A DNA stretch of 64,000 nt from the sequence record NC_010583.1. One strand, 5' to 3'. The DNA is from Escherichia phage Eps7. Below the pieces are notes generated by a model, which was given only the letters and a program-made list of their open reading frames with translations, had not been told where the DNA came from and did no database searches. Below, piece by piece: positions 32,871 through 47,385 of the stretch (positions are counted from its first letter, which is position 1; each line of letters opens with the position of its first letter). A program made the translations under genes and the position numbers.

Positions 32871-32946
32871 TGGTGGAGTCACTCAGAATTGAACTGAGTT
32901 CCACTGCTTGCAAGGCAGTAAGTTTAACCAAATAACCTATGACCCC
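32871..32946 (-). tRNA. tRNA-Ala (TGC)
   Basis: manual fold: G3-U70 pair, anticodon stem ACTGC/GCAGT, loop CTTGCAA, CCA. Confidence 0.6.
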
Positions 32947-32952
32947 GAATTT

Positions 32953-33031
32953 TGGTGGAGAATAACGGAATCGAACCGTTCTGATGTCCTCGGTGCAAGC
33001 GAGGTGTCCACTCCATGCAGACCCATTCCCC
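32953..33031 (-). tRNA. tRNA with anticodon TGC (second Ala-like copy)
   Basis: manual fold: G3-U70, anticodon stem CCTCG/CGAGG, loop CTTGCAC, T-arm AACGGTTCGATTCCGTT, CCA. Confidence 0.5.
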
Positions 33032-33040
33032 AAAATTTAT

Positions 33041-33304
33041 TTATTCTCTATACATATCGAGAACAGTTGCTACAATCTGAGCTTCTAGCCTAGCAATATC
33101 TTTATTCACTATATCAGATTCTACTACTAAGTGATTATATATTGCTTCAGTTTTAGCAAGATCTACATCAGATAGTTTATTAAGACTATTATAATACTTA
33201 GCATTATTGCAACGTTTCTTCATATCGGAAACTCGTTTATGGAGTGTTCTTTGTTGATAACGTTGTGACATTAGTTTCTTAGCCATATCTTTCAGATCAA
33301 ACAT
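33041..33304 (-). CDS. hypothetical protein
   Basis: 87-aa ORF with AGGAAT RBS. Confidence 0.5.
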   Translation of the reverse strand: MFDLKDMAKKLMSQRYQQRTLHKRVSDMKKRCNNAKYYNSLNKLSDVDLAKTEAIYNHLVVESDIVNKDIARLEAQIVATVLDMYRE

Positions 33305-33548
33305 GGATATTCCTTCTAGTTTACTAAGGCTATTAGCTCGGTGTGCGTATTACCCTCAGACATTAGCCAGTAGAGGATAATCGCTCTTCACAAACCCGAT
33401 ACACTATTCAGTTGCCGCTGAATCTAGCGGACTAATCTAGAACTTCTCCCGAGTCGTAGGGATCGTGCTTTTTTGGCAGCCAGTCCTAGGTCGAGCTAAT
33501 ACCTTAGTGAACTTTGATGAGGATTTCTCCTCATCAATTTATATAAAT
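33305..33548 (-). ncRNA. candidate structured leader / small RNA
   Basis: 245-nt ORF-poor transcribed segment between promoter and next start codon; long-range complement TAAGGTATTAGCTCG vs CGAGCTAATAGCCTTA; local hairpins. Confidence 0.3.
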
Positions 33549-33577
33549 ATTATAACAAGAAATTAAGCATCAAGCAA
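33549..33577 (-). promoter_or_regulatory. sigma70-type early promoter
   Basis: ATTATA 33549-33554, AAGCAA 33572-33577, 17-bp spacer. Confidence 0.6.
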
Positions 33578-33929
33578 GTACATTTTTAGCGATTTCTTGT
33601 AGTTCCTTAACGTCGCTAACGAAAAGGTAATCAGAGCTTCCAGAGTGCATACTCTGCATAACCACACCACCATCCGGTGCATCTTCTTTCAGTGTGATAC
33701 CTAACCAGAACTCGGCAAAACTAGGTGTTACCTCACCTTGACTTGCCTTGAACACATCGCCTTCTGTGATCTCTTGACCAGTGGAGAGTCCCATGTATGG
33801 TACGTTCAGATCAATATCTTTGTAGAACTCAGCTAGATCTTGCTCGAAATCCCAACCTTTAGAGATAGCGAACTCCATTGTTACATGACCGAAATAGCCT
33901 TGAACCTTGCTTGATAATTGCATTTGCAA
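33570..33929 (-). CDS. hypothetical protein
   Basis: 119-aa ORF. Confidence 0.5.
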   Translation of the reverse strand: MQMQLSSKVQGYFGHVTMEFAISKGWDFEQDLAEFYKDIDLNVPYMGLSTGQEITEGDVFKASQGEVTPSFAEFWLGITLKEDAPDGGVVMQSMHSGSSDYLFVSDVKELQEIAKNVLA

Positions 33930-33948
33930 TTCCTTATTTTGAGTTAAT

Positions 33949-34022
33949 TGGTACTCGGTGATAGAATCGAACTATCGCAACCGCCGTGTAAAGACGGGGT
34001 TCTCCCATTAAACTAACCGAGC
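33949..34022 (-). tRNA. tRNA-Val (TAC)
   Basis: manual fold: T-arm GATAGTTCGATTCTATC, anticodon stem CCGTC/GGCGG, loop TTTACAC, CCA. Confidence 0.6.
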
Positions 34023-34026
34023 AATT

Positions 34027-34104
34027 TGGTGGATTGCCTGGGATTCGAACCCAGAACTGACGGATTAAAGGTCCGCTACTCTTATCCAGTTGAGCTAGCA
34101 ATCC
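34027..34104 (-). tRNA. tRNA-Lys (TTT)
   Basis: manual fold: anticodon stem GCGGA/TCCGT, loop CCTTTAA, T-arm CTGGGTTCGAATCCCAG, CCA. Confidence 0.6.
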
Positions 34105-34490
34105 AATTTTTCTACTAATAATTTAAAAGCATCTAGTACAGGTACTTCAAACCATTCTCCAGATACTCTATAATCTTTAAGAAGATTATGTAATTCTTTC
34201 TCTGTACGTCTTTTATCCGACGAAAATCTGAAATGGTATAGCTTGTAGTCTCTATTAGGTGAATAAGTTTGATAACTTGTTAACCTCTCATTCACATCTA
34301 TAGTCATACCTATTTTATACATGCCTGGCCATGCTGGATTACCAATTACATATACAAAACCTTCCGTTATAGGTATTTTATGCTCCCTTTTATACTTTAA
34401 GAGATTTAAGGCTGCCATTCGATAACAGAATCTAAACTCTGAAGTTTTTAACTTACCTTCTTTACCTGAAATTTCGTTATATTTGCTCAT
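34095..34490 (-). CDS. T5orf172-type (GIY-YIG-like) domain protein
   Basis: 131-aa ORF with YVIGNPAWPGMYKIGMT...RL...Y pattern; 3' end overlaps tRNA by ~10 nt. Confidence 0.5.
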   Translation of the reverse strand: MSKYNEISGKEGKLKTSEFRFCYRMAALNLLKYKREHKIPITEGFVYVIGNPAWPGMYKIGMTIDVNERLTSYQTYSPNRDYKLYHFRFSSDKRRTEKELHNLLKDYRVSGEWFEVPVLDAFKLLVEKLDC

Positions 34491-34744
34491 ATAAGCTCTT
34501 ATGAGCTTATCATCTATAATGAAGTTATCAGGAAGGTTTAAGGCAGCTAAAAACTTTATTAATTAGCATAGACTTCCTTAATAGAATAAACTTTTAAGTT
34601 AAGGTGATTAATACCAAATTCCGCCATCACTTCGTTTTCATCTTTACCGTAATGGGCTAGTGGATACTTCTTACGATCTTTGCTAGAACGTAGATCACTT
34701 ACTTTTAAACGAAATAATTTCATTTCGAAATCCTTCTATTAAAT

Positions 34745-34822
34745 TGGAAGCGGGTGCAGGAATCGAACCTACCTCTTTCTAGCTTATGAGACTAGCGATC
34801 TCTACCAGAGATCTAACCCGCA
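34745..34822 (-). tRNA. tRNA-Met (CAT), possibly initiator type
   Basis: manual fold: unpaired 1-72, anticodon loop CTCATAA, T-loop TTCGATT, CCA. Confidence 0.55.
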
Positions 34823-34828
34823 ATTGTT

Positions 34829-34907
34829 TGGTCTCCGTGGGAGGATTTGAACCCCCCGACCCTATCGCCCCAAACGAAACGCTCTGGCCAAACTGAGCTA
34901 CACGGAG
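34829..34907 (-). tRNA. tRNA-Pro (TGG)
   Basis: manual fold: acceptor CTCCGTG/CACGGAG, anticodon loop TTTGGGG, T-loop TTCAAAT, CCA. Confidence 0.55.
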
Positions 34908-34938
34908 AATATTCTTTGTTAACTCACTTTATAAATAT

Positions 34939-34967
34939 ATTATACAGAGAATTAAGCTAAATAGCAA
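34939..34967 (-). promoter_or_regulatory. sigma70-type early promoter upstream of tRNA pair
   Basis: ATTATA 34939-34944, TAGCAA 34962-34967, 17-bp spacer. Confidence 0.6.
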
Positions 34968-35212
34968 CTACATTTTTAATAAATTTACTTATTAGGTAAG
35001 TCACCGAGCTATCAACTCATGCTAGCGAAAGTTTGCGAGACCTTCTTTAAGTACTAGAACACACCCGCCGATGTGTCGGACTTACTTAATAAGTAAACTT
35101 TCGTTTACTTACACCTACCTGGTCGGGAGGATTTTCAGCGACTAGAACCGGCCGGAAACTCATCGCCTTGTTTATCTAGGAGTCCGTTCTCTAGGAAGCA
35201 GAAACCTAAATT

Positions 35213-35287
35213 TGGTGCGGTCGGAGGGAATCGAACCCTCAACTTCTGGTTGGCAACCAAAAAATTATACCTTTTAACTACGAACGC
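35213..35287 (-). tRNA. tRNA-Gly (GCC)
   Basis: manual fold: T-arm GAGGGTTCGATTCCCTC, anticodon stem TTTGG/CCAGA, loop TTGCCAA, CCA. Confidence 0.6.
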
Positions 35288-35302
35288 ATAATAAGTCAAT
35301 CT

Positions 35303-35440
35303 AGGCAGGACTTGAACCTGCTATCACTTGTGCGGATTTACGAGAACCATTCTTTCACTCGAATCGAACGAGCTTCTACCCTCGGCAAGCTGGTGTCCCC
35401 TCTCCACCACGCTAGAATGATAATTAATGCCTGCTCCTTT
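35303..35440 (-). other. unresolved tRNA-like region (two T-arm-like motifs, no encoded CCA)
   Basis: GCAGGTTCAAGTCCTGC and GCTCGTTCGATTCGAGT motifs; acceptor stems could not be paired by hand. Confidence 0.3.
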
Positions 35441-35500
35441 GAATCAAGAAGTCCACCCCGGACTTTGGGTCTTTGCAGTACATCACGCTGCTCTGATGTT

Positions 35501-35576
35501 TGGTACACCCACTAGGACTTGAACCTAGAACCCTCCGCTTAAGAGGCGGTAGCTCTAACCATTGAGCTATGGATGT
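35501..35576 (-). tRNA. tRNA-Lys (CTT)
   Basis: manual fold: T-arm CTAGGTTCAAGTCCTAG, anticodon loop CTCTTAA, CCA. Confidence 0.55.
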
Positions 35577-35652
35577 ATTATTATGTTTTGCAGTGCTCTA
35601 AATATAGACACTTCCCACGCGGTGGTTATCTATACCAGCGTCCTGCAAAAAT

Positions 35653-35729
35653 TGGCGCGACCGATGGGATTCGAACCCACATTTTCTCCCGTGACAGGGG
35701 AGTACCATTACCAAGCCAGCCCCGATCGC
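35653..35729 (-). tRNA. tRNA-Asp (GTC)
   Basis: manual fold: anticodon stem CTCCC/GGGAG, loop CTGTCAC, T-loop TTCGAAT, discriminator G, CCA. Confidence 0.65.
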
Positions 35730-36025
35730 ATAATTTATTTACTCAGTTTTGAGTTTTTCGATAGCTTCCTCAACCTCTTTTAGAGCTTCACGACGGGCAT
35801 TCTGTTGCTGCATATCTTGAATTAATGTCAGTTTTTGTTTTTAATTTCTTGATCCCAAACCTTAATATTATTAATCAGACTATCACGATCAGCTTCTAGT
35901 CGAGCAATTGCACGAGTTGTCATATCTATTTCCTCAGTTATTAATGAAAATGGTATCTGTGACTGAATTCAATATCAGTAATGATAGCTGGTTGGCTACC
36001 GGTTTACTTAACTCTACACAGAATA

Positions 36026-36108
36026 TGGCGGGCCGTGTAGGATTCGAACCTACGTTGTCTTTCGACATGGATTAACAGTCCACCGCCAAACCGCTTGGCT
36101 AACGACCC
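36026..36108 (-). tRNA. tRNA-Asn (GTT) with enlarged variable region
   Basis: manual fold: anticodon arm GTGGACTGTTAATCCAT, T-arm GTAGGTTCGAATCCTAC, CCA; 83 nt. Confidence 0.55.
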
Positions 36109-36115
36109 TAAAATT

Positions 36116-36191
36116 TGGACGACCGCATGAGATTCGAACTCACATAAGGAGGTTTTGCAGGCCTCCGCCTAAGCCATTCAGCCAACGGTCG
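36116..36191 (-). tRNA. tRNA-Cys (GCA)
   Basis: manual fold: anticodon loop CTGCAAA, discriminator U, T-loop TTCGAAT, CCA. Confidence 0.55.
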
Positions 36192-36369
36192 AGTTATCTT
36201 GCTTTTCGAGATTAGTAAACTCTAGATCTTTAGAATGTCCTATAGATCTAGCATAATAGCCATCTCCAGCATCATAGCCTGACTTACCACACTCACACAT
36301 CTTAAACTCTCTATAACGAGTGAAAATATGTTCAGAACCACAACACTTAAATTTAACTAACATTTTCAT
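36178..36369 (-). CDS. zinc-ribbon-like small protein
   Basis: 63-aa ORF with CC...CxC; 3' end overlaps tRNA by ~14 nt so stop may be misplaced. Confidence 0.4.
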   Translation of the reverse strand: MKMLVKFKCCGSEHIFTRYREFKMCECGKSGYDAGDGYYARSIGHSKDLEFTNLEKQDNSTVG

Positions 36370-36590
36370 TTAACACGCTCCGGTAAATCTTCGAGTTTAT
36401 ATTGAGTAGCCACATTAGCAGCATCTAGTAACAAACCCATATGTTTAAGAATCCTAGTGATAGCTTCGCCTTCTGCTTCTTCTACAAAAGTGCGTAGTTG
36501 AATGAAGTCAATACCACCATCCATACCAGAGAAAATGTTAAGTAAGCGAAGCATTACCAGCTTACGTTCTTTTAATTCTTGTTCTGCCAT
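36366..36590 (-). CDS. hypothetical protein
   Basis: track ORF 36366..36608 trimmed to Met 30 nt downstream of promoter -10. Confidence 0.5.
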   Translation of the reverse strand: MAEQELKERKLVMLRLLNIFSGMDGGIDFIQLRTFVEEAEGEAITRILKHMGLLLDAANVATQYKLEDLPERVK

Positions 36591-36619
36591 GTTGCTTCTC
36601 CAGTTCAATTTATGTAATA

Positions 36620-36648
36620 ATTATACAGAACTTTAAGGATTTAAGCAA
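36620..36648 (-). promoter_or_regulatory. sigma70-type early promoter
   Basis: ATTATA 36620-36625, AAGCAA 36643-36648, 17-bp spacer. Confidence 0.6.
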
Positions 36649-36928
36649 CTACATTTTTCAGAAATTTGATGCCTTTCTTTTTCTTCTTATACTTCCACGT
36701 TAATGGATTCTGTCGATTATGAACGCTTGAGATCTTTGTCTCGTCAAATTTCTTCAATACCATGTAATCACACGCCAACTGCTCTAGTGGAATGGTTTCT
36801 CCATCAAAAGCATAAACATAAGGCTGTTGACTAGCACGATAATGATAGACTTTGTTAACTCTACGTTTCAGCGACTTATCCGCGCAGTAAATAAAGAAGT
36901 TTTCAGGATGCATCAGCATCTCCTTCAA
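36641..36928 (-). CDS. hypothetical protein
   Basis: 95-aa ORF directly downstream of tRNA. Confidence 0.45.
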   Translation of the reverse strand: MKEMLMHPENFFIYCADKSLKRRVNKVYHYRASQQPYVYAFDGETIPLEQLACDYMVLKKFDETKISSVHNRQNPLTWKYKKKKKGIKFLKNVVA

Positions 36929-36930
36929 AT

Positions 36931-37005
36931 TGGTGCAACCTGTACGTAACGATCGTACCTCTTCTCCTTTTCAGGGAGACGCTAATCCATCTCAGCTAAA
37001 GTCGC
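36931..37005 (-). tRNA. tRNA-Phe (GAA)
   Basis: manual fold: anticodon stem TCTCC/GGAGA, loop CTGAAAA, CCA; atypical T-loop. Confidence 0.5.
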
Positions 37006-37011
37006 AAATAT

Positions 37012-37088
37012 TGGCAAACCTACTAGGACTCGAACCTAGACCGTACGGTTTTGGAGACCGACATGCTGTCCAGTAACACTCTAGGAAT
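37012..37088 (-). tRNA. tRNA-like, anticodon probably CCA (Trp); acceptor stem imperfect
   Basis: T-arm CTAGGTTCGAGTCCTAG, anticodon arm CGGTCTCCAAAACCG, CCA end; 5' acceptor pairs poorly. Confidence 0.4.
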
Positions 37089-37096
37089 GCAGAAAT

Positions 37097-37173
37097 TGGC
37101 GTCCTGTGCGGGGATCGAACCCGCAAATCCTACCTTGAAAGGGTAGTGACTTTACCAGTTTGTCTAACAGGAC
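37097..37173 (-). tRNA. tRNA-Glu (TTC)
   Basis: manual fold: acceptor GTCCTGT/ACAGGAC, anticodon stem CTACC/GGTAG, loop CTTTCAA, CCA. Confidence 0.7.
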
Positions 37174-37180
37174 TTAAATT

Positions 37181-37271
37181 TGGTGTTGGATGATGGAGTC
37201 GAACCACCCGAGACCCTTCCGAGTCGGCAGATTTACAGTCTGCTTCGCTACCTCTACGATACTAATCCAAC
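37181..37271 (-). tRNA. tRNA-Tyr (GTA), long variable arm
   Basis: manual fold: anticodon stem GCAGA/TCTGC, loop CTGTAAA, 91 nt, CCA. Confidence 0.65.
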
Positions 37272-37396
37272 ATATTTGAATGAAAAATAAGTCGGTTAAA
37301 CTCAAGGTGGAATATTTCAGGAAATCCTGACTTTACCCCTAAAAGCAACTCGCTTAGTTACTTCTCATTCAGATATGTTTTCCAAATTAGATAACT

Positions 37397-37426
37397 ATTA
37401 TATCAAGTTTTGAAGGACTGAGCAAG
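37397..37426 (-). promoter_or_regulatory. sigma70-type promoter overlapping a hairpin
   Basis: ATTATA 37397-37402, AGCAAG 37421-37426; inverted repeat CTGAGCAAG...CTTGCTCAG 37418-37450. Confidence 0.45.
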
Positions 37427-37461
37427 TCAAATTTTAAAGAACTTGCTCAGTGCTATATCAG

Positions 37462-37737
37462 TTACTCGAAGCTAGGAGTGACACTCAGTTTGAATGGAAG
37501 CTCGAACACTTCTTCATAATCATCATTGAGCGTAATTACACGACCTTCTAGCTTAGTCATGGTGATTTCGATATCAGCCTCTGCATCAGGAGCCATACCA
37601 GCTTCCACACATTTAGCTTTGACTTCCGGCAGAAGTTCTACATCGTAGAAATAAAGCCATTCAATCTCACCTTCCCAGCCACCCCAGGATTTACAAACAG
37701 CACTTTCAACACCAGTTGCAGTAACACGTTTTGACAT
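37462..37737 (-). CDS. hypothetical acidic protein
   Basis: 91-aa ORF 31 nt downstream of promoter. Confidence 0.5.
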   Translation of the reverse strand: MSKRVTATGVESAVCKSWGGWEGEIEWLYFYDVELLPEVKAKCVEAGMAPDAEADIEITMTKLEGRVITLNDDYEEVFELPFKLSVTPSFE

Positions 37738-37767
37738 TCGTTAACTCCTTCATCAATTTATATAACT

Positions 37768-37797
37768 ATTATAGCAGAAATCTTAAGTAAAAAGCAA
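37768..37797 (-). promoter_or_regulatory. sigma70-type early promoter
   Basis: ATTATA 37768-37773, AAGCAA 37792-37797, 18-bp spacer. Confidence 0.6.
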
Positions 37798-37827
37798 GTA
37801 CATTTTTAAAATTTCTGCTTGGAGGAG

Positions 37828-38034
37828 TTAAACTCCTGATTCTTCAGCCAGATCAAGCCCAACCAACGTGATTGCCATAATAGCCGCGCCATGTTCTTTC
37901 TCTCCTAGCTCTTTGGCTTGAGTGAGAATATTTAGGAACTGCTTTTGAAAATCTGCAACTTCTTCTGTCATGCCTGCTTCAGCAATAATTCCTTTCAGCA
38001 TAAAGCGTTGTGCCGTAATTTCAGGATTAGCCAT
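37828..38034 (-). CDS. hypothetical protein
   Basis: 68-aa ORF. Confidence 0.45.
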   Translation of the reverse strand: MANPEITAQRFMLKGIIAEAGMTEEVADFQKQFLNILTQAKELGEKEHGAAIMAITLVGLDLAEESGV

Positions 38035-38185
38035 TTATTATCTCCAGTTATTTAGAATGTAAGCCAAACTTAGGATCATAGCGATCGTAAGTCGTACCAT
38101 TAGTTGAAGCCTTGATGCTATGAAAACGACAGTACATAAATTTACGTAGTGCTTTCTTAATAGCTTTCATTTTATTTCCTTAATT

Positions 38186-38262
38186 TGGTAGGGGTGGTGG
38201 GATTCGAACCCACAAAACCTGAATTTTAAGTCCAGTACCTATGCCAATTCGATTACACCCCC
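38186..38262 (-). tRNA. tRNA with anticodon TAA (Leu-type) but short variable arm
   Basis: manual fold: T-arm GTGGGTTCGAATCCCAC, anticodon stem CTGGA/TTCAG, loop CTTAAAA, CCA; D-arm irregular. Confidence 0.45.
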
Positions 38263-38270
38263 ATGTAATC

Positions 38271-38608
38271 TTAGCGAATCTCTAAACCCTGGAAATATCG
38301 AGGGAATGGAGAGCCAACTTCAAAATTGATGCCCCAATTAAGTTCAACGAGTTCAGATTTATTAAGATCTAGGCCATTACCTTCAAAGATATAGCCGTAA
38401 ACCGCAGGGAACATAGCTGCTAGATCTTCCATATCGGAATGAGCATTGTGTTCTTCACGGAACTGCTCAACTCTTCAATAGAACTTTTCTAGGAGACTCA
38501 GGTACGATGAACGTTACCACATCAGTAGAATCATCGGTACGATACACCGTAGCTTGGAACAAGCCAACACCTAAAAGGTTTATTGCCGGAGTAGTAAAAA
38601 TATCCATC
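38271..38608 (-). CDS. hypothetical protein, frame interrupted near 38470
   Basis: two adjacent protein-like frames (MDIFTTPAINLL... and ...EQFREEHNAHSDMEDL...) each below track threshold. Confidence 0.35.
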
Positions 38609-38794
38609 TTAGCCTCGCTCAATGTCTAGACAAATTGCATATTCAGGGTTGATACCAGTACCTTTACATGTAGGACATTCCCATTCTCTACAGAAAATAT
38701 CCCCAGGTTCTGCATCATCCTGCCTACCACTACCATGACAGTCCTTACACCGACATTCTTCTAATGCTTTCTTCATTTCATAGAATCTAGACAT
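38609..38794 (-). CDS. zinc-finger-like small protein
   Basis: 61-aa ORF with CxxC...CxxC. Confidence 0.5.
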   Translation of the reverse strand: MSRFYEMKKALEECRCKDCHGSGRQDDAEPGDIFCREWECPTCKGTGINPEYAICLDIERG

Positions 38795-38811
38795 ATAGTC
38801 TCCTAGTTAAT

Positions 38812-38889
38812 TGGTGGCTCCCGGAGGATTCGAACCTACCTACCTTTCGCTTATGAGGCGACGGCTCATACCAAATGAGCTTGAGAACC
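38812..38889 (-). tRNA. tRNA with anticodon CAT (third CAT tRNA)
   Basis: manual fold: D-stem GCTC/GAGC, anticodon loop CTCATAA, T-loop TTCGAAT, CCA. Confidence 0.55.
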
Positions 38890-38894
38890 AAATT

Positions 38895-38988
38895 TGGAGG
38901 AAGATGCCAGATTCGAACTGGCACACCGTGTCTCCACAGCTACTGGCTGTTTAGCAAACAGCTCCCTTACCTTTAGGGTTAATCTTCC
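38895..38988 (-). tRNA. tRNA-Ser (GCT), long variable arm
   Basis: manual fold: acceptor GGAAGAT/ATCTTCC, anticodon loop TTGCTAA, T-arm GCCAGTTCGAATCTGGC, 94 nt, CCA. Confidence 0.6.
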
Positions 38989-39002
38989 GAATTTATGAAT
39001 AT

Positions 39003-39031
39003 ATTATACAGAAAATTTCGGCATTAAGCAA
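39003..39031 (-). promoter_or_regulatory. sigma70-type early promoter upstream of tRNA pair
   Basis: ATTATA 39003-39008, AAGCAA 39026-39031, 17-bp spacer. Confidence 0.6.
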
Positions 39032-39039
39032 GTGAAATT

Positions 39040-39336
39040 TTACTGAACATTGCACTGATATACTTGTTTGATACGTGTCACTGACTTCTTAGTTGGGTTG
39101 ATAGAAGAACCCTGCCACCAACGTGATTCTGAGCTGAGAACAGCCCCAGGAACAGCTTGTTCTTTTGGCAGAACAATATCAAAACACTGTTCACCCATAT
39201 TATCTTTAATGTGCGACCAAATGTCTAGAGTAAATCGTTCTAGCTTATTACAAACTTGAACTTGACAAAGTTCCTGTTGTGGAGCAGCAAATACAGAAGT
39301 AGATACTAGAGTCAATGCAAGTACAATGCGTTTCAT
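39040..39336 (-). CDS. secreted/periplasmic protein (signal peptide)
   Basis: track ORF trimmed to MKRIVLALTLVSTSVFA start; MREESNM prefix is a leader artefact. Confidence 0.5.
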   Translation of the reverse strand: MKRIVLALTLVSTSVFAAPQQELCQVQVCNKLERFTLDIWSHIKDNMGEQCFDIVLPKEQAVPGAVLSSESRWWQGSSINPTKKSVTRIKQVYQCNVQ

Positions 39337-39366
39337 ATTTGATTCCTCTCTCAAATTTATAAATAT

Positions 39367-39394
39367 ATTATACAGAAATTTTCTATATAAGCAA
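39367..39394 (-). promoter_or_regulatory. sigma70-type early promoter
   Basis: ATTATA 39367-39372, AAGCAA 39389-39394, 16-bp spacer. Confidence 0.55.
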
Positions 39395-39411
39395 GGTAAA
39401 AATTTATGTAT

Positions 39412-39434
39412 ATAGCCCTCTAAGCGAGGGCTAT
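39412..39434 (-). terminator. hairpin ATAGCCCTC-loop-GAGGGCTAT downstream of pnuC-like gene
   Basis: perfect 9-bp stem; T-rich tract is weak. Confidence 0.4.
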
Positions 39435-39441
39435 AACTACT

Positions 39442-40134
39442 TTATTTGTTAACGCGTACAAAGTATCCTTTATAGGCTCCCATAATAGAGTTACCTAAGA
39501 ATACTAGCCACATTGCTAGGATTGCATAAGATGCACCTGTAGATTGAGCAGTTACAAGCCAAATGTACACAGTACCAATGTTAATAGCAATCCAAATCAG
39601 CCATTGTTCAGCATATTGTTTGACCATAAGCCACATAGCAATCACACTACCTACCGCAGTAAATGCATCCAACATTGGGAATGGATCAGCCGTAGTAGCA
39701 AGGAAACTACCATAACCTAACGTGGCTACTGCTAAAATCCCTAGAGTCAGCAAAGCTTGAGCTTTTGTCAGAACTTTAGTTGGAACATCCGGCAGATTAC
39801 TTGGCTTATTTTTATGCCATAAGTACATTCCATAAAACTGCATAGGAACGTAGTATAGCAGGTTTAGTGCAGCGTTACCATAAAGATCTGCGTTTAAAGC
39901 TGTAATACCATATGTAAGAACACCCACTAAGCCCCAAATATAGTTGGAAACACGTCCTTTTGCAACCAGAATAACACAAACCACATTGGTTATTGCAGTA
40001 GCCCAATCTAGAGCTGTACCATTATAGTTTGCTAAACTAATAAAGGCGACTGCTATAAACAGCCACAGATATTCCAGAGGTTTCCAGTTTTTAAAGTCAT
40101 TTACGAGATAGTTAGTCATATTAAAACTCTCCAA
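39442..40134 (-). CDS. pnuC: PnuC-like nicotinamide riboside transporter
   Basis: 230-aa multi-TM ORF overlapping the end of the NadR-like gene; size and topology typical of PnuC. Confidence 0.55.
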   Translation of the reverse strand: MESFNMTNYLVNDFKNWKPLEYLWLFIAVAFISLANYNGTALDWATAITNVVCVILVAKGRVSNYIWGLVGVLTYGITALNADLYGNAALNLLYYVPMQFYGMYLWHKNKPSNLPDVPTKVLTKAQALLTLGILAVATLGYGSFLATTADPFPMLDAFTAVGSVIAMWLMVKQYAEQWLIWIAINIGTVYIWLVTAQSTGASYAILAMWLVFLGNSIMGAYKGYFVRVNK

Positions 40135-41176
40135 AGATAAAGTGATGAATCAGCCAGTCTACTGCGTTTACTGCTTCGTCCATACGAACTTTGTAGTCCG
40201 GAGAGTCGATGTAAACAGTACGCCCTTCAGGGAACTGATTTGGAAATTCTTTCTTCATCTGCTCGAACAGTTCAGAAGTAATTGAACGATCGGAGTTAAT
40301 ACGTAAACCATCATCTACCCACTTGACAGTAGGCGCTAGAACAATTACTAAATCGTAATGTTCTTCTTTTGCAATTGCTGTAACCACAGGGTTCTTACTA
40401 TGTTCATAAAGTCTGTGGTAGAACTCAGTAATAAAAGCATTTGTATCCACAAACATGATCTTATTTGCAGTACGTTTTGCTTCAAACTCTAGCTCTTTGT
40501 GTCTGAACGCAATTTTACTATAGTCTTCGCTGGTAAGCAGATTTTCGTTACCAACTAGATCAACTTCACAATACGTTCGGCCATATTCTTTTACCCACGA
40601 AGTGTTGTATAGCTTCGCAAGGTATTTTGTTAAAGTAGTCTTTCCTGAGCTTTCAGTCCCAATGATTACAACCTTACGCACGTAATCTTTACGAACTACG
40701 CTAGGAAGAAACTCCCAATACTTCATAAGATCATTACGAATCATTGTAGCTGAGATTGGAACACGAGTCCGATCAGAATCTACAATATAATGACCAAACT
40801 TCGGCAGATATTTCTTATATTCTGCATCATAGTCTAGTTCGCTAGAGAAAATGGTGATCTCAGGCAAATGTCCGTAATTTTCATTAAGGATTCTAGCATA
40901 TTCCGGCCAACCATTCGGATATTCAGGAATATCATCTTCAATAATGTACTCTACCGAAATGTGCTCAATATCCGCGTAAGTTTGTTCTAACCAACGAAGT
41001 CGATTCTTTAACTGTAATACTTCCTGATCACGTGTGTTCTGCTTATCCAGCCAACGATTATCATGACTAACTACAACAATAACTCGTTCACACATAGTTG
41101 CTGCTGTGTTTATTAGGTTAATATGACCACGCGTTAATGGCGCGAACTTACCAATTACTAGACCAGTCTTAATCAT
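40121..41176 (-). CDS. nadR: NadR-like bifunctional NMN adenylyltransferase / ribosylnicotinamide kinase
   Basis: N-terminal nucleotidyltransferase motif GKFAPLTRGHINLI and C-terminal Walker A GTESSGKTT; start trimmed to MIKTGLV. Confidence 0.65.
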   Translation of the reverse strand: MIKTGLVIGKFAPLTRGHINLINTAATMCERVIVVVSHDNRWLDKQNTRDQEVLQLKNRLRWLEQTYADIEHISVEYIIEDDIPEYPNGWPEYARILNENYGHLPEITIFSSELDYDAEYKKYLPKFGHYIVDSDRTRVPISATMIRNDLMKYWEFLPSVVRKDYVRKVVIIGTESSGKTTLTKYLAKLYNTSWVKEYGRTYCEVDLVGNENLLTSEDYSKIAFRHKELEFEAKRTANKIMFVDTNAFITEFYHRLYEHSKNPVVTAIAKEEHYDLVIVLAPTVKWVDDGLRINSDRSITSELFEQMKKEFPNQFPEGRTVYIDSPDYKVRMDEAVNAVDWLIHHFIFGEF

Positions 41177-41205
41177 ATTTGATTCCTCTCTCAAATTTAT
41201 AAATA

Positions 41206-41234
41206 TATTATACAGAGAATTTAGCGTTCAAGCA
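41206..41234 (-). promoter_or_regulatory. sigma70-type early promoter
   Basis: ATTATA 41206-41211, AAGCAA 41229-41234, 17-bp spacer. Confidence 0.6.
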
Positions 41235-41390
41235 ATCGAATTTTTAAACTTTTTAGTGGAAAAATCTCAAGGCATTTAGTGGTAGCACGTTGTTGCTACA
41301 ATAATAGTATATGTATTACTAAAGTAAATAAAGAATTAAATACTAAAGACCTTAGTTGAATAACTTATGGGCTTTTCTTTTGCCTTAAAT

Positions 41391-41427
41391 ACAGAAAAGC
41401 CCGCGCTCTCGGAGGAAACGCGGGCTT
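41391..41427 (-). terminator. rho-independent terminator
   Basis: AGCCCGCG-loop-CGCGGGCT stem followed on minus strand by TTTTCT. Confidence 0.65.
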
Positions 41428-41450
41428 GGTTCGAAGATTACGTGTAACTA

Positions 41451-42395
41451 TTACTTGTTACGCATATCCATGATCATTTGACCATCGTAGCCAGTACCAA
41501 CAACAGTCTGCGGTACACCACCTTGTATTTTTCAGCACGAAGCATTTCAAACTTCCAGCTGCTTCCAACGAATCATTTCAGGAGTAATGGTACGTTGCAG
41601 CGCGGCGTTAGCTTCAGCTTCTTTCTTAGCTGCGTACAGTTTAGCATCTGCGTCACGTTCGTTAGCTACTGCCATGTTTTCACGAGCAGAACGATCAGCT
41701 TCAGCTTGCTTAACTTTCTGCTGTGCTTCTTGTTCAACACGAGCCAATTCAGCTTTAGCGGCGTTAACTTGTTCTTCACGAACTTTTGTGTTTTGTACCT
41801 GTTCCATGATTACAGGTGGCAGAGTAATATCCTGAAGGAATACTTGCTTAACCGTGTAACCATAAGGACGCGCGTACTCTTCTACTTCTTGCTGAATAGC
41901 AGTTTGCAGTTGAGCCTGAATCTTAGCGTCGAACAGATCTTGTGCTTTTGGTACAGACTTACCAAACTCACGAATCGTAGATAGCATCTTCTCTTCAACG
42001 TACTTGTTCAGAGCTTGATCCTGAGTACCTGCGTTAACACGGTTCATAGGAGCTTTAGCACCATCAAACTGCAACATAACGGTAATGTCAACAGTGGACT
42101 TAAACTTATCCTGGCTAGGAACCTGAAGTTTATCCAGTTTCATGGAAATATCTTTCGTACTAAAAGTATCAAAAGAAGCAAATGGGTTAACAATATGGAA
42201 GCCTGGCAATACAGGATTAGGGCTAACTTTACCCAGGAAGGTTTGGGTCTTAACAGTACCATCCTGAACAACTGTGTAGGAATTGAGAGCCAGAATAAGA
42301 GCGCCAAGACCAACTACAGCACCAACACCCCAACGTTTGATAGTGCGAATTACTTTTTGCTCAGAAGTCAGTTCTTTAGTGTTTTTAGTAAACAT
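41451..42395 (-). CDS. SPFH/band-7 (stomatin/prohibitin-like) membrane protein, C-terminus frame-shifted
   Basis: 282-aa ORF with N-terminal TM and long Gln/Ala coiled-coil region; protein-like frame continues to stop near 41451. Confidence 0.5.
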
Positions 42396-42406
42396 ATATT
42401 TCCTTA

Positions 42407-42607
42407 TTATTTAGAAGAGTTAGCTACTACAGTTACTTTAGTTGCAGAAATAAACAGGCTAGCATCCACAGCAAATTCAGGAGCTTTGATATCTCCATTA
42501 TGAAATATGACTATACCGGAGACTACTTCAAATGCTAGTGCTGTAACATCGGTGGTATTTACTTGTGAATGTTCACCTACTACTTTTACTATATATCGTG
42601 TTTTCAC
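42407..42607 (-). CDS. hypothetical protein
   Basis: 66-aa ORF downstream of tRNA. Confidence 0.45.
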   Translation of the reverse strand: MKTRYIVKVVGEHSQVNTTDVTALAFEVVSGIVIFHNGDIKAPEFAVDASLFISATKVTVVANSSK

Positions 42608-42633
42608 TTTATTTTCCTAGCAGTTAATAAAAT

Positions 42634-42708
42634 TGGCCGAGGTGACAGGATTCGAACCTGCATAAAGGAATTTAGAAGACTCCTGCCTATCCCTTAGACT
42701 ACACCCCG
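42634..42708 (-). tRNA. tRNA-Arg (TCT)
   Basis: manual fold: acceptor CGGGGTG/CACCTCG, anticodon stem GGAGT/ATTCC, loop CTTCTAA, T-arm GCAGGTTCGAATCCTGT, CCA. Confidence 0.6.
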
Positions 42709-43805
42709 TTTAGGTATTTTTAAGAACTCTTATAAAAGCTCTTAAAGATACCCGACGGTAGGTAGGGTCAGCCCCCTCAGATTAAGCTCTGCAGCCCTTC
42801 CGTCAGACAATATCTTCCAGTTTAAGTCAGGGTGACTTTGTGGTTATGTTCTCCGTATGTGAAGAACTCGGTTAGGCTTAGGTCATGACTCCCAGCCTAC
42901 TGCTGCCACTCAACAGGAATTATCGCGAATTACCTGTACTATTGGGCACCATTAGTGACATCTCTCATGTCAGCGTTTCCCACTCTCATATTCACGCGGT
43001 CTGTTAGAATCGCACCTCCGATTTTCGATGCGAAGCTGGATGCCTAGTCTCAGGTTAAACGGGGCACACACTAGGCAGTGATCCCGAGTTCCGAGTTTGG
43101 TTGAGGCCGTCAGGTTTCCTCGTGGTTTAGCTGTTTCGATTCTAACCTAATACTGATCAGGTGGCGTACCTCCTGAACCGTCATAGTATGTACTCCAGCA
43201 GCGAATGCTTATCCGGTATAAGCCCGAGTTATCCGATTCTTTCCAGAAGGAGCAGTAAAGCTCAATGTCAGCCTGTGAGCATCTGGCAGTGTTATCACAT
43301 AAGTCAGTTCGACACCCCACATTTTAGTGCCTGGTAGATCCCGAATGAAGCCCTCAGTCGTTAGACCTCCATCATTCATCAAAGATTTACGCTACCCACT
43401 ATTCGATGGACAATCGCCGCATTGTGGTATACATACGTTTTCACTTGCATCCTAGACGGGTCAGCGTTGAAAGTTATATGGGTTTCTCAAGCCCAACCTT
43501 CAGTCTTCTACCCCTGGGACACGCACCGTATTTCACACTGTGCCTAGCTCCTGTTGAGACCCATCGTTTTGTATAAATTAGAGAAGAGTTTAGAGGAGAG
43601 GTTTCAGACGCCTCATTTTACAAGAAGTCTCGAACCTATATTCGTTACTCTAGTCACTTGGCCGGATATACCGGACTGGACTCGGAACTCTAACAGGTGA
43701 TCATTCTTAACCCACCGACTCTATTCAGTGTCAGAAGCTATCACTAGGTGAATCGCTAAAGCTCACTCAGCGTAATCGGCTCGCTGTTCTCTAATTTATG
43801 AATCT
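42709..43805 (-). other. ~1.1-kb ORF-free, G+C-elevated segment transcribed from an early promoter (candidate large non-coding RNA or foreign insert)
   Basis: no ORF of 60 codons or more in six frames; sampled G+C ~45-52 percent versus ~30-40 percent in flanks; promoter at 43806-43834 points into it. Confidence 0.4.
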
Positions 43806-43834
43806 ATTATACAGAATTTTGGAACGTTTAGCAA
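43806..43834 (-). promoter_or_regulatory. sigma70-type early promoter reading into the ORF-free segment
   Basis: ATTATA 43806-43811, TAGCAA 43829-43834, 17-bp spacer. Confidence 0.6.
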
Positions 43835-43842
43835 ATCAATTT

Positions 43843-44524: not shown

Positions 44525-44992
44525 TTAAGTTTTCTTAACCACAGGCTTGTAGAACGTATGGCCTTGAATCTTCGTTGTTTTCTTAAACTTCTTTGTCCAG
44601 TACGGTTTATCTTTACCACTATGGAAGTATAACGCTCCATGTGTTGGATCTTGTGGTAAATCAACGTAGTATATCACTCTAGCTAAATTCTTAGCAACTT
44701 GCCAAGCCTCATCGGTTTTATCAACTTTTGGTCTCTTGGCCACCCAAGAGAACTGGTTAGACTGATATACTACTTTACAGTAAGAATCAGGAAAGTACCA
44801 GAGTTAACACGGTTTTTTAGTAACCTGTGCAACTGCGATCATTCCTTTAGTGCCCTCACCTCGTGCTTCGAAGTAGATATTTTTTGCAATGCAATCAATC
44901 TGCTTTGAGTCGTAGGTCGCATGACTATTGAAGCTATAGGTTAGGGCAGCTATTAAAAGCAAAGCTGCCTTCATTTTATTTACTCCGGCCAA
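44525..44992 (-). CDS. SleB-like cell wall hydrolase with signal peptide, frame interrupted
   Basis: ORFs 44804..44992 (signal peptide, NIYFEARGE) and 44525..44743 (HGALYFHS); intervening frame reads VNSGTFPDSYCKVVYQSNQFSW. Confidence 0.5.
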
Positions 44993-45297
44993 TCGTACTC
45001 AATACGATTAGGGCTTTCTTGATACCCTTCGTCTAAGAGATCATTACGCATGGTCTCTTTAGCTACTGGGTTCGAGGTTACTAGTACCACTTTCTTGGGT
45101 CTCTGACCAAATTCTAGGAGTAAACGAAGAATTTGATAACCTTCCATACCATCTACAGCCAGATCGTTATCCATATAAACGAAATGACCTGTGGTATCGG
45201 TTTTATTCAGAAACTCAATAGCGGCTTCGGGGGTTCGAATGATAATGTCCATTCCATGAAGGTTACGTACATCATCAATCAGAATATGAAAAATCAT
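44980..45297 (-). CDS. receiver (REC/CheY-like) domain protein candidate
   Basis: 105-aa ORF with ILIDD ... YMDNDL ... VVLVTS ... K spacing resembling response-regulator receiver domains. Confidence 0.4.
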   Translation of the reverse strand: MIFHILIDDVRNLHGMDIIIRTPEAAIEFLNKTDTTGHFVYMDNDLAVDGMEGYQILRLLLEFGQRPKKVVLVTSNPVAKETMRNDLLDEGYQESPNRIEYDWPE

Positions 45298-45327
45298 AAT
45301 AGCCTCGTCTCATCAATTTAAAAATAT

Positions 45328-45356
45328 ATTATACAGAAAACTAAACTAATTAGCAA
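45328..45356 (-). promoter_or_regulatory. sigma70-type early promoter
   Basis: ATTATA 45328-45333, TAGCAA 45351-45356, 17-bp spacer. Confidence 0.6.
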
Positions 45357-46429: not shown

Positions 46430-46612
46430 TTACAGACCGATTGCCAGCATAGTGCGCAGAACAGTATCAGAACTGTTATCAATATTCGGATTGGCGCGAT
46501 TCAGCACGTTAAAGATTTTCTGGATGCCGGACTGACGCTCAGCCATACGACGCAGACCCAGGTTACGTTTTGCTACTTTACCATTTTTACGGACGTTTTT
46601 AGATACTGGCAT
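46430..46612 (-). CDS. small basic protein
   Basis: 60-aa ORF. Confidence 0.4.
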   Translation of the reverse strand: MPVSKNVRKNGKVAKRNLGLRRMAERQSGIQKIFNVLNRANPNIDNSSDTVLRTMLAIGL

Positions 46613-47385
46613 AATTATTTTCCTTTTGTTGTTCTCTCAAATTTATGAATATATTATACAGAATTTGGAGCTGAAAGCAAATCAAATTTTGATTTTTTTC
46701 GATCATGATGGCTACACAATAACTTTCAACTAAAGCATCGAATGCGGGATCATGTTTCACTGGATAGATTCCATAACGAATGGTATCCATCTTTTCCATT
46801 TTAGCTTTTGCCCAGCTAGCACCTTCGGCTTCTAGATCTTTATAGCTATAACCAGCTTGCATCCACTGATTACGGAAAGATCGAACGTTACCTAAGTTCC
46901 AGAATTTCCACGGAACTATTTCTTCATGGGTTCCGGCATGGAACGTATTTGCAGAGTAGATTGTCATATCAAACTCTGGGCCATTGCCGTAATACAGAGC
47001 ATTATCTCCTAGAGACAATTCCATAATGTTCTGAGCCATAGAGAAGGCAGCATAATTAGAGCCTACGTCATTAGTGCAGTGATGCTTACCATCACGGAAG
47101 GCAATCAGTTTAGGATTACGACCATTTAGAGCCTCCATAATATGGAGCGCAGATGGACTGTTTTTTAGCTTGATCCATCCAGAATGCAATAGTAGAGGCA
47201 GTTACCTTAGCACCCGCATTAAGCTGATCTTGAACGTCTAGAGTAACGAATACCAGATCAGGATCTTTATCAATTCCGTGCATCGCTACAAAAGCGAAAG
47301 AAGGCATTGCAATATGAGTAGTACCGCAATTTCCTGGAGTACCTAGAGATTCAATGTCCAGCATACCAAAGGGCTTGAATTTCAT
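46599..47385 (-). CDS. putative exonuclease-like protein, frame interrupted
   Basis: ORFs 47116..47385 (MLDIESLG acidic motif) and 46599..47189 overlap; 3' end of downstream piece runs into promoter. Confidence 0.4.
46653..46680 (-). promoter_or_regulatory. sigma70-type early promoter
   Basis: ATTATA 46653-46658, AAGCAA 46675-46680, 16-bp spacer. Confidence 0.55.

What the first reader, a model, noticed from the sequence alone, without database searches (positions are those of the whole stretch)
44980..45297. Orphan receiver-domain-like (CheY-like) protein
The 105-aa ORF has the spacing of a response-regulator receiver domain: N-terminal acidic pair (ILIDD), putative phospho-acceptor Asp in YMDNDL about 40 residues later, Thr/Ser in VVLVTS and a downstream Lys. 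No output domain or kinase is nearby. A stand-alone REC protein in a lytic phage could hijack host two-component signalling.
Basis: inference. Interest (0 to 1): 0.5.

Follow-up and report, generated by a model that had tools for sequence, protein, structure and literature searches.

The report
Phage cREC receiver-like protein (T5.084)
This small early gene of a T5-like phage does encode a receiver-domain-like protein, but it belongs to the already catalogued phage family "cREC", which is predicted to be a small phosphate-cleaving enzyme and not a two-component signalling switch, and whose real activity has never been tested.

Summary
The ORF is real. It lies at 44980..45297 on the minus strand and encodes 105 aa, with a GAGG ribosome-binding site, a sigma-70-like promoter and pN/pS 0.11 against T5.

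The window is a T5-like Epseptimavirus. The gene is the ortholog of T5.084 (93% identical) and is present in about 400 T5-like records.

It matches Pfam PF20274 (cREC_REC) at 56.7 bits (cut-off 27) and does not match the canonical receiver model PF00072. UniProt and NCBI already give near-identical orthologs this name.

- **Conserved, as in receivers:** the acidic pair (D8, D9), the acceptor-position Asp (D43) and the Thr (T74).
- **Not conserved:** the canonical Lys; its position holds S95 and varies across the family.
- **Family-specific:** near-invariant R11, R21, D45 and N76.

No kinase occurs nearby, here or in the relatives examined. Some distant members sit beside RtcB and RNA ligase genes, WYL/SIR2 genes or tRNA clusters.

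Knocking down T5.084 had no fitness effect in a published screen, and T5 is sensitive to Detocs.

Verdict: the fold inference is right and the signalling-hijack idea is unsupported. The family is known but biochemically untested. Interest is low to moderate.

The parts
44980..45297 (-). Coding sequence of the 105-aa stand-alone cREC (PF20274) protein, the ortholog of phage T5 gene T5.084; the range includes the stop codon
   Evidence: ORF listing; Pfam match of 56.7 bits against a cut-off of 27; PHROG 1479, E = 6.6e-30; 93% identical to T5.084 and 99% identical to the Stitch and Seafire orthologs; pN/pS 0.11
45303..45306 (-). Ribosome-binding site GAGG, 5 nt upstream of the ATG
   Evidence: Read from the sequence; the same site is annotated as the ribosome-binding site in phage Seafire
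45328..45356 (-). Sigma-70-like promoter TTGCTA-17-TATAAT, about 30 nt upstream of the ATG; probable early promoter
   Evidence: Consensus scan, 10 of 12 positions match; T5 has an annotated promoter at the equivalent place upstream of T5.084. This is a consensus match only; promoter function is inferred
45265..45276 (-). Codons for D8-D9-V10-R11: the acidic pair at the end of strand 1 plus the near-invariant family Arg
   Evidence: D8 99%, D9 100% and R11 98% conserved over 110 family representatives; strand 1 spans residues 4-7 in the model
45235..45237 (-). Codon for R21, invariant in the family, at the end of strand 2
   Evidence: 100% conserved over 110 representatives; strand 2 spans residues 18-20
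45163..45171 (-). Codons for D43-N44-D45. D43 occupies the phospho-acceptor position at the end of strand 3. D45, two residues later, is invariant (a DxD motif). Position 44 is H in 77% and N in 21% of the family
   Evidence: hhalign against CheY aligns D43 with D57 and D45 with N59; strand 3 spans residues 39-42; conservation figures
45067..45078 (-). Codons for T74-S75-N76-P77 at the end of strand 4. T74 is the counterpart of the receiver Thr/Ser; N76 and P77 are family-specific
   Evidence: T74 aligns with CheY T87; position 74 is T or S in 99%, N76 is 98% and P77 is 91% conserved

Best explanation
The gene encodes a stand-alone member of the cREC family (Pfam PF20274, "cyclic-phosphate processing receiver domain") and is the ortholog of phage T5 gene T5.084. 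It is probably an early gene, transcribed from its own promoter; this timing is inferred from the promoter-like site and the T5 annotation.

**Structure.** The protein is a stripped-down receiver fold: strand 1, a loop, strand 2, then helix-strand units up to strand 5, with no helix 1 and no helix 5. The C-terminal ends of strands 1, 3 and 4 carry D8/D9, D43/D45 and T74/N76. Two invariant arginines (R11, R21) stand where receivers use a lysine.

**Most likely function (inferred, not shown).** It is a small aspartate-based phosphoesterase, not a signalling switch.
- D43 would attack a phosphate, as in receivers and in HAD phosphatases.
- The invariant D45, two residues on, would act as general acid/base, as in the HAD DxD motif.
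- The arginines and T74 would hold the phosphate.
- The probable substrate is a cyclic or terminal phosphate on RNA (2',3'-cyclic ends left by host anticodon nucleases) or on an ADP-ribose-derived small molecule.

This would make it an accessory phage-host conflict gene that is dispensable on laboratory E. coli.

**Confidence, by step.** Family membership and fold are shown here (about 0.97). That it is an enzyme, and what its substrate is, are inferred (about 0.45).
For: **Family membership**
- PF20274 match of 56.7 bits against a cut-off of 27.
- 4315 cluster representatives match the family profile at E <= 0.001, most of them stand-alone proteins of about 100 aa.
- UniProt and NCBI already give near-identical orthologs the cREC name.

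**Fold**
- pLDDT 93.5, with the topology given by DSSP.

**Pocket residues**
- Near-invariant over 110 diverse representatives: D8, D9, R11, R21, D43, D45, G53, T/S74 and N76.
- The invariant Asp two residues after the acceptor Asp (100%) is a HAD-like DxD signature. In CheY that position is N59.
- Purifying selection, pN/pS 0.11.

**Genomic context consistent with RNA-end or NAD chemistry in part of the family**
- RNA_ligase, cREC and RtcB lie on one strand within 4.7 kb in L017 and L018.
- WYL-WCX and SIR2 lie beside cREC in an integrase-borne island.
- tRNA genes lie within 8 kb of cREC in 8 of 29 other loci. In this window, tRNA-Arg is 2.3 kb downstream and 28 more tRNA genes follow.

**Literature.** The family was defined and predicted to cleave cyclic phosphates; it is never found with histidine kinases and had not been characterised experimentally as of 2022 (PMC7824862 and PMC9503650).

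**Accessory role.** T5.084 knock-down was scored "Not Fit" (fitness -4.196, p = 0.88, 5 guides) in the CRISPRi-ART data table (PMC11879866, supplementary file 16).
Against: - No biochemical data exist for any cREC protein in the literature searched.
- This phage has no RNA ligase, RtcB, Nudix, Macro or WYL gene within 10 kb of cREC. A tblastn of the window with one RtcB and one RNA ligase found nothing.
- The nearest NAD-linked genes are not adjacent: NadR is 4 kb away and Sir2 is 15 kb away.
- The gene has no conserved neighbour, even within Demerecviridae. In phage My1 it sits elsewhere in the early block. A census of 148 neighbouring proteins found no dominant partner.
- The T5 clade has N44 where 77% of the family has H, and A47 where 90% has G. 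If that His is catalytic, this clade could work differently.
- The tRNA proximity has no matched control.
Confidence: 0.5

Rival explanations
1. Signal sponge or ligand binder. The conserved charged pocket binds a phosphorylated or cyclic nucleotide-like immune messenger, or an RNA end, without cleaving it. It would then resemble the small phage sponge proteins that sequester defence signals.
For: - It is a small (105 aa), stand-alone early accessory gene with no enzymatic partner nearby.
- Its ortholog is dispensable on a laboratory host.
- It sits in regions rich in small genes of unknown function.
- That small phage sponges exist is my own knowledge, not tested here.
Against: The strictly conserved set of four aspartates, a threonine and two arginines is the signature of phosphoryl-transfer chemistry in both receivers and HAD enzymes (established knowledge, applied). 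No oligomer or binding evidence was obtainable here.
Confidence: 0.2
2. Phosphorylation-controlled switch without a kinase. The domain is phosphorylated on D43 by a small-molecule donor such as acetyl phosphate and then binds or regulates another phage or host protein, like a single-domain response regulator.
For: The receiver-like fold is present, and the acidic pair, the acceptor-position Asp, the Thr and the aromatic Y92 (counterpart of CheY Y106) are all retained.
Against: - Helix 5, and with it the helix 4-strand 5-helix 5 face that receivers use for output, is missing (the role of that face is established knowledge).
- The Lys needed for the canonical switch is not conserved.
- The invariant Asp two residues after the acceptor would be expected to make any acyl-phosphate short-lived (inference from HAD chemistry).
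- No conserved partner gene exists.
Confidence: 0.12
3. One reading: a phosphate sink or decoy that takes phosphoryl groups from host histidine kinases, either ordinary two-component systems or the Detocs defence system, and so rewires or disarms host signalling.
For: - The fold is receiver-like and the acceptor Asp is conserved.
- Detocs contains a stand-alone buffer receiver, DtcB, so a phage mimic is conceivable (bioRxiv 10.1101/2023.01.24.525353).
Against: - No match to PF00072 at E <= 10, and no match to any PADLOC defence model.
- Helix 1, the main kinase-docking element in canonical receivers (established knowledge), is replaced by a 10-residue loop in the model and throughout the family alignment.
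- The family is reported never to occur with histidine kinases. None was seen in the loci examined here, and none recurred in the neighbour census.
- T5, with a 93% identical ortholog, is fully blocked by Vibrio alginolyticus Detocs expressed in E. coli.
Confidence: 0.08
4. Not a functional gene: a chance ORF or a decaying remnant.
For: Three other genes in this window carry frameshifts or stops relative to their relatives, so the assembly or the phage does carry lesions.
Against: - This ORF is intact and differs from the Seafire and Stitch orthologs by a single conservative change, V27I.
- pN/pS is 0.11.
- It is present in 492 phage records.
- It has a strong Pfam match and a high-confidence fold.
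Confidence: 0.01

Closest known systems
cREC, the cyclic-phosphate processing receiver domain (Pfam PF20274; defined by Iyer, Anantharaman, Krishnan, Burroughs and Aravind, Viruses 2021, PMC7824862)
   Same: - Scores well above the family threshold.
- Carries the family signature DDxR ... R ... D[HN]DL[GA] ... G ... [TS]SNP.
- Stand-alone protein of about 100 aa, phage-borne, with no kinase nearby.
- Near-identical orthologs already carry this name in UniProt and NCBI.
   Different: - The T5 clade has N44 and A47 where most members have H and G.
- In this phage the gene is not next to any RNA ligase, Nudix, Macro, WYL or sirtuin gene. The contextual argument behind the family's predicted function therefore rests on other members.
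Canonical two-component receiver domains (CheY, Spo0F; Pfam PF00072)
   Same: - Acidic pair after strand 1, Asp at the end of strand 3, Thr at the end of strand 4 and an aromatic residue on strand 5, all at matching positions.
   Different: - No sequence-profile match.
- Helices 1 and 5 are absent.
- The Lys at the end of strand 5 is absent.
- Extra invariant residues R11, R21, D45 and N76.
- No kinase partner.
HAD-superfamily phosphatases (DxD nucleophile and acid/base motif), including the 3'-phosphatase domain of T4 polynucleotide kinase
   Same: A possible working analogy: an Asp nucleophile with a second Asp two residues later, a Thr/Ser and a basic residue holding the phosphate. HAD enzymes heal RNA ends in phage repair pathways. 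This rests on established knowledge and is an inference here.
2H phosphoesterases (2',3'-cyclic phosphodiesterases)
   Same: The activity proposed for cREC in the literature is the one 2H enzymes are known to perform, and both occur in large phages (PMC9503650).
   Different: Unrelated fold, and His-based instead of Asp-based chemistry.
DtcB, the stand-alone buffer receiver of the Detocs defence system
   Same: A single-domain receiver-like protein with no output domain.
   Different: - DtcB works with a cognate kinase and is a canonical receiver.
- This protein matches no PADLOC model.
- Its T5 ortholog does not protect T5 from Detocs.

Membership tests
cREC (Pfam PF20274) | Profile HMM score above Pfam's gathering threshold | tested here: met
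   56.7 bits against a cut-off of 27, E = 3.9e-15, covering residues 4-87 and profile positions 2-86 of 88
cREC (Pfam PF20274) | Family signature residues: the DD pair, the two arginines, the D-x-D after strand 3 and the [TS]-x-N-P after strand 4 | tested here: met
   D8, D9, R11, R21, D43, D45, T74, N76 and P77 are all present. Each is 91-100% conserved in 110 representatives. Position 44 holds N, the minority state (21%), not H
cREC (Pfam PF20274) | Receiver-like Rossmannoid fold | tested here: met
   [not shown]
cREC (Pfam PF20274) | No association with histidine kinases | tested here: met
   No kinase within 10 kb in a T5-like contig, none in the seven other annotated contexts, and none recurring among 148 neighbouring proteins from 22 loci. 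Only the 25 commonest families were listed, so a single occurrence cannot be excluded
cREC (Pfam PF20274) | Neighbourhood of RNA-repair or NAD/ADP-ribose-processing genes | tested here: inconclusive
   Not met within 10 kb in this phage. NadR is 4 kb away and Sir2 is 15 kb away. Met in other members: RNA ligase and RtcB in L017 and L018; WYL and SIR2 in L030
cREC (Pfam PF20274) | Cyclic-phosphate phosphodiesterase activity | not testable with these tools
   This is a prediction only. The defining authors state that the family is experimentally uncharacterised (PMC9503650), and no later report was found
Canonical receiver domain (PF00072, CheY-like) | Match to the Response_reg profile | tested here: not met
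   No PF00072 match even at E <= 10. One family member, P0187, reaches only 17.9 bits against a cut-off of 30.2
Canonical receiver domain (PF00072, CheY-like) | Five strand-helix units, including helix 1 (kinase docking) and helix 5 | tested here: not met
   DSSP of the model shows no helix between strand 1 (residues 4-7) and strand 2 (18-20) and no helix after strand 5; there are three helices in all. This rests on a predicted structure
Canonical receiver domain (PF00072, CheY-like) | Acidic pair after strand 1, acceptor Asp after strand 3, Thr/Ser after strand 4 | tested here: met
   D8/D9; D43 aligns with CheY D57; T74 aligns with CheY T87
Canonical receiver domain (PF00072, CheY-like) | Conserved Lys at the end of strand 5 | tested here: not met
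   The position that aligns with CheY K109 is S95. Across 110 family representatives it is K in only 17
Canonical receiver domain (PF00072, CheY-like) | Phosphotransfer from a cognate histidine kinase | not testable with these tools
   No kinase gene was found in the Pfam-annotated 10 kb on either side of the gene; phosphotransfer from host kinases needs a biochemical assay
Detocs DtcB-like buffer receiver | Sequence similarity to Detocs or other defence-system receiver models | tested here: not met
   No PADLOC model matches at E <= 10

The most novel reading that the evidence does not exclude
The T5-type cREC protein, encoded next to the phage's large tRNA gene set, is a true enzyme built on a receiver fold. 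It would use D43 and D45 either to open or remove the 2',3'-cyclic phosphate ends left on tRNAs by host anticodon nucleases, or to destroy a cyclic-phosphate or ADP-ribose-derived alarm molecule. That would be the first receiver-fold domain shown to act as a stand-alone counter-defence phosphoesterase.
Probability: 0.3. Interest if true: 0.6.

Novelty: already known. Interest (0 to 1): 0.28.

Why it matters
The result corrects a tempting misreading: a receiver-like phage protein is not evidence that a phage taps host two-component signalling.

The family is large (4315 clusters at 50% identity match its profile) and is conserved across T5-like phages. It nevertheless has no tested activity and no solved structure.

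T5 is a tractable model phage, and its ortholog T5.084 is dispensable in the laboratory. It is therefore a convenient entry point for finding out what cREC proteins do. If the predicted cyclic-phosphate chemistry holds, it would add a new enzyme type to phage RNA-repair or counter-defence toolkits.

Tried and rejected
- **Sequence search of solved structures.** Only chance matches were found, to designed beta-trefoils and one designed receiver-like protein (E >= 0.05). No cREC structure exists.
- **NCBIfam and PADLOC.** No matches.
- **Exact-sequence contig look-up of the window protein.** Not on record; it carries a private V27I change.
- **Scan of genome contigs with the broad alignment.** A narrower sub-family alignment gave only 12 loci, mostly metagenome bins, which suggests the family is mainly phage-borne.
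- **All-against-all clustering of neighbours in 22 loci.** No conserved partner emerged.
- **Fusion partners among the longer family members.** Only one HNH fusion and otherwise unannotated extensions. None of the Nudix fusions described in the literature appeared in this sample.
- **Adjacency to the SleB-like hydrolase.** I considered a functional pair and rejected it, because the adjacency is not kept in phage My1.
- **Literature searches for an experimental cREC study or a phage anti-Detocs receiver.** Nothing was found, and the journal version of the Detocs paper is not held. My recollection that it reports phage DtcB homologs could not be checked, so I did not use it.
- **Rfam scan of the locus.** Only the tRNA was found.
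- **Model coordinates.** They are not exposed to scripts, so distances within the pocket could not be measured.

Full report
**Observation.** The ORF is real. It runs from 45297 down to 44980 on the minus strand and encodes 105 aa. A GAGG ribosome-binding site lies 5 nt upstream at 45303..45306 (annotated at the same place in phage Seafire). A sigma-70-like TTGCTA-17-TATAAT lies at 45356..45328 on the same strand, where T5 has an annotated promoter in front of its ortholog. Against the T5 ortholog there are 27 synonymous and 11 non-synonymous differences, giving pN/pS 0.11, so the gene is under purifying selection.

**Where the window comes from.** The 2.6 kb around the gene is 98.6-99.3% identical to T5-like phages of the genus Epseptimavirus, family Demerecviridae: Klebsiella phage 150049 and Salmonella phages UTK0010, Stitch and Seafire. 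The protein differs from the Stitch and Seafire orthologs only by V27I and is 93% identical to T5.084 of phage T5. tblastn finds it in 492 phage records. About 400 of these are T5-like at 80% identity or more. Weaker relatives occur in Pectobacterium phage My1 and in about 50 large Vibrio phages. The records listed annotate the gene itself only as a hypothetical protein.

**Family.** The protein matches Pfam PF20274, cREC_REC ("cyclic-phosphate processing receiver domain"), at 56.7 bits against a cut-off of 27. It does not match the canonical receiver model PF00072 even at E <= 10. It also matches PHROG 1479, of unknown function, and nothing in NCBIfam or PADLOC. UniRef and NCBI already label orthologs about 90% identical as cREC-domain proteins, and BFVD lists phage proteins with that name as the best structural matches. 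A profile built from 66 relatives finds 4315 cluster representatives at E <= 0.001 among 1.84 billion. Most are stand-alone proteins of about 100 aa. Ten of the longer ones were checked: one is fused to an HNH nuclease and the others carry unannotated extensions.

**Structure.** An AlphaFold2 model built with the 66-sequence alignment has mean pLDDT 93.5 and pTM 0.86. The DSSP elements are:
- strand 4-7
- strand 18-20
- helix 23-32
- strand 39-42
- helix 53-62
- strand 69-72
- helix 77-90
- a short strand at 92-93
- strand 100-102

**Active-site mapping.** A profile alignment to E. coli CheY (sequence supplied from memory) has low probability, because the target is a single sequence. Even so, it is consistent with the strand positions in the model.

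| This protein | CheY |
|---|---|
| D43 | D57 |
| D45 | N59 |
| T74 | T87 |
| S75 | A88 |
| Y92 | Y106 |
| S95 | K109 |
| P96 | P110 |

Conservation over 110 diverse family representatives, which are 27-46% identical to the query:

| Position | State and frequency |
|---|---|
| 8 | D, 99% |
| 9 | D, 100% |
| 11 | R, 98% |
| 21 | R, 100% |
| 43 | D, 99% |
| 44 | H 77%, N 21% |
| 45 | D, 100% |
| 53 | G, 100% |
| 74 | T or S, 99% |
| 76 | N, 98% |
| 77 | P, 91% |
| 80 | R or K, 75% |
| 95 (CheY Lys position) | variable; K in 17 of 110 |

Four residues of the receiver quintet are kept and the Lys is not. The family adds two invariant arginines, an invariant Asp two residues after the acceptor Asp, and an Asn-Pro after strand 4.

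**Context in this phage.** In a T5-like contig with precomputed Pfam labels, the genes within 10 kb are:
- ribonucleotide reductase, thymidylate synthase and RNase H
- DUF7022
- an Rv2179c-like 3'-5' exoribonuclease
- cREC
- a SleB-like cell-wall hydrolase, DUF7616 and a YqeY-like protein
- a Band-7 protein and a Toprim protein

There is no kinase, RNA ligase, RtcB, Nudix, Macro or WYL gene (window genes checked). tRNA-Arg lies 2.3 kb downstream and 28 more tRNA genes lie between 29.7 and 39 kb. NadR starts 4 kb downstream, and relatives annotate PnuC beside it. A Sir2 gene lies 15 kb away. In the more distant Demerecviridae phage My1, cREC sits at a different place in the same early block and is not next to the SleB-like gene. 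No neighbour is therefore a conserved partner.

**Context elsewhere.**
- In two related metagenome contigs binned as a Thermoplasmata archaeon, an RNA ligase (PF09414), cREC, a 174-aa protein of unknown function and RtcB lie on one strand within 4.7 kb, with tRNA genes interspersed (L017, L018).
- In an integrase-borne island of beta-proteobacterial type, cREC lies among an AAA ATPase, DUF2779, a WYL-WCX regulator, SIR2 and a PP2C phosphatase.
- In a KVP40-like Vibrio phage contig (L005) it follows a block of 17 tRNA genes.
- In other phage contigs it sits among small genes of unknown function, with Metallophos and SprT-like genes recurring twice.
- In a Parcubacteria genome it stands alone among housekeeping genes.
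- A census of 148 neighbouring proteins from 22 loci found no dominant family and no recurrent kinase.
- tRNA genes lie within 8 kb of cREC in 8 of 29 other loci. This is suggestive but has no control.

These observations independently reproduce part of the published contextual picture. They also show that it does not apply directly to T5-like phages.

**Literature.** The family was defined in 2021 as a divergent receiver domain. It was described as never found with histidine kinases and as linked to RNA ligases, WYL regulators and NAD/ADP-ribose enzymes. It was predicted to resolve 2',3'-cyclic phosphates or cyclic ADP-ribose derivatives (PMC7824862). In 2022 the same group stated that it remained experimentally uncharacterised (PMC9503650). 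I found no later functional study.

Two experimental data sets bear on the T5 ortholog.
- In a transcriptome-wide knock-down screen, T5.084 is listed as "Not Fit" (mean guide fitness -4.196, p = 0.88, 5 guides). It is absent from the list of 17 Fit genes, although one sentence of the same supplement names it among Fit genes of unknown function (PMC11879866). I follow the data table: the gene is dispensable on E. coli DH10B.
- T5 is fully blocked by the two-component-like Detocs system (bioRxiv 10.1101/2023.01.24.525353).

**Mechanism.** Shown here: family membership, the fold, the conserved pocket residues, the accessory status of the ortholog, and the absence of kinases nearby. Inferred: the protein is a small Asp-based phosphoesterase. 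The argument has three parts.
- The invariant D-x-D after strand 3 resembles the nucleophile plus acid/base pair of HAD phosphatases. The active-site geometry of those enzymes is known to parallel that of CheY (established knowledge).
- The two invariant arginines can replace the missing Lys in holding a phosphate.
- The surfaces that receivers use to dock kinases (helix 1) and to signal (helix 4-strand 5-helix 5) are truncated.

The substrate is unknown. RNA 2',3'-cyclic phosphate ends or ADP-ribose-derived cyclic phosphates are the published prediction. They fit the RtcB, RNA ligase and tRNA contexts of some members, and they fit the tRNA-rich setting here. However, T5-like phages lack an adjacent ligase. 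Any sealing step would therefore have to be done by a host enzyme, or the protein would erase a signal instead of repairing RNA.

I put family membership at about 0.97 and the enzyme reading at about 0.45.

**Verdict.** The object is a member of a described and catalogued family, so the novelty class is "already known". The remaining interest is that the family has never been tested at the bench, and that T5 offers an easy system in which to test it.

Noticed in passing
window 44525..44974 (minus strand): The SleB-like cell-wall hydrolase gene immediately downstream (Pfam PF07486, with a signal peptide) is broken in this window. A 1-nt insertion, followed 24 nt later by a 1-nt deletion, shifts 8 codons and creates a TAA at 44804..44806. 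The gene is intact in Stitch and Seafire.
   Followed up: yes
window 46599..47385 (minus strand): The Rv2179c-like 3'-5' exoribonuclease gene (T5.087 ortholog; 702 nt in Stitch) carries two extra A residues in runs of A. It is split into ORFs of 89 aa and 196 aa. The pattern looks like homopolymer sequencing error, but the lesions could be real.
   Followed up: partly
window 59829..60643 (plus strand): The Sir2 gene is split into ORFs of 71 aa and 216 aa by a 1-nt length difference from most relatives. The closest record, Escherichia phage PSa2 (99.1% identical), annotates the same split as two genes.
   Followed up: partly
window 29711..42708 (minus strand): There are 29 tRNA genes covering all 20 amino acids, interspersed with small ORFs. 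The last one, tRNA-Arg(UCU), lies 2.3 kb downstream of the cREC gene.
   Followed up: partly
window 42709..43842: A stretch of about 1.1 kb has no convincing ORF. It lies between tRNA-Arg and the YqeY-like gene, at the place where T5 has "RNAX, stable RNA with unknown functions". Only about 210 nt align to T5 RNAX (79-88% identity). A TTGCTA-17-TATAAT promoter-like site lies at 43834..43806. Rfam gives no match.
   Followed up: partly
L017 2915..7597 and L018 (contigs binned as a Thermoplasmata archaeon): RNA ligase (PF09414), several tRNA genes, cREC, a 174-aa protein of unknown function and RtcB lie on one strand in a compact putative RNA-repair cassette. The contigs may be viral.
   Followed up: partly
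L030 346..11031; also L009, L011, L012: An integrase-borne island next to a tRNA-Leu gene carries DUF2779, a 716-aa double-AAA ATPase, cREC, a WYL-WCX regulator and SIR2, with a PP2C phosphatase in related loci. It looks like a defence or counter-defence island.
   Followed up: no
L021 8001..8640: Two cREC-like genes lie in tandem. BLAST groups the second with the family, but it does not reach the Pfam threshold.
   Followed up: no
PMC11879866, supplementary files 1 and 16: The supplement is internally inconsistent about T5.084. The data table and the list of 17 Fit genes call it Not Fit, while one sentence lists it among Fit genes of unknown function.
   Followed up: yes
window 40121..41194 (minus strand) and the gene just downstream: A NadR-type gene with adenylyltransferase and AAA_28 (kinase-type) domains lies here. 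In relatives a PnuC transporter gene is annotated just downstream of it. The two form an NAD salvage pair that is not annotated in the equivalent region of T5.
   Followed up: no
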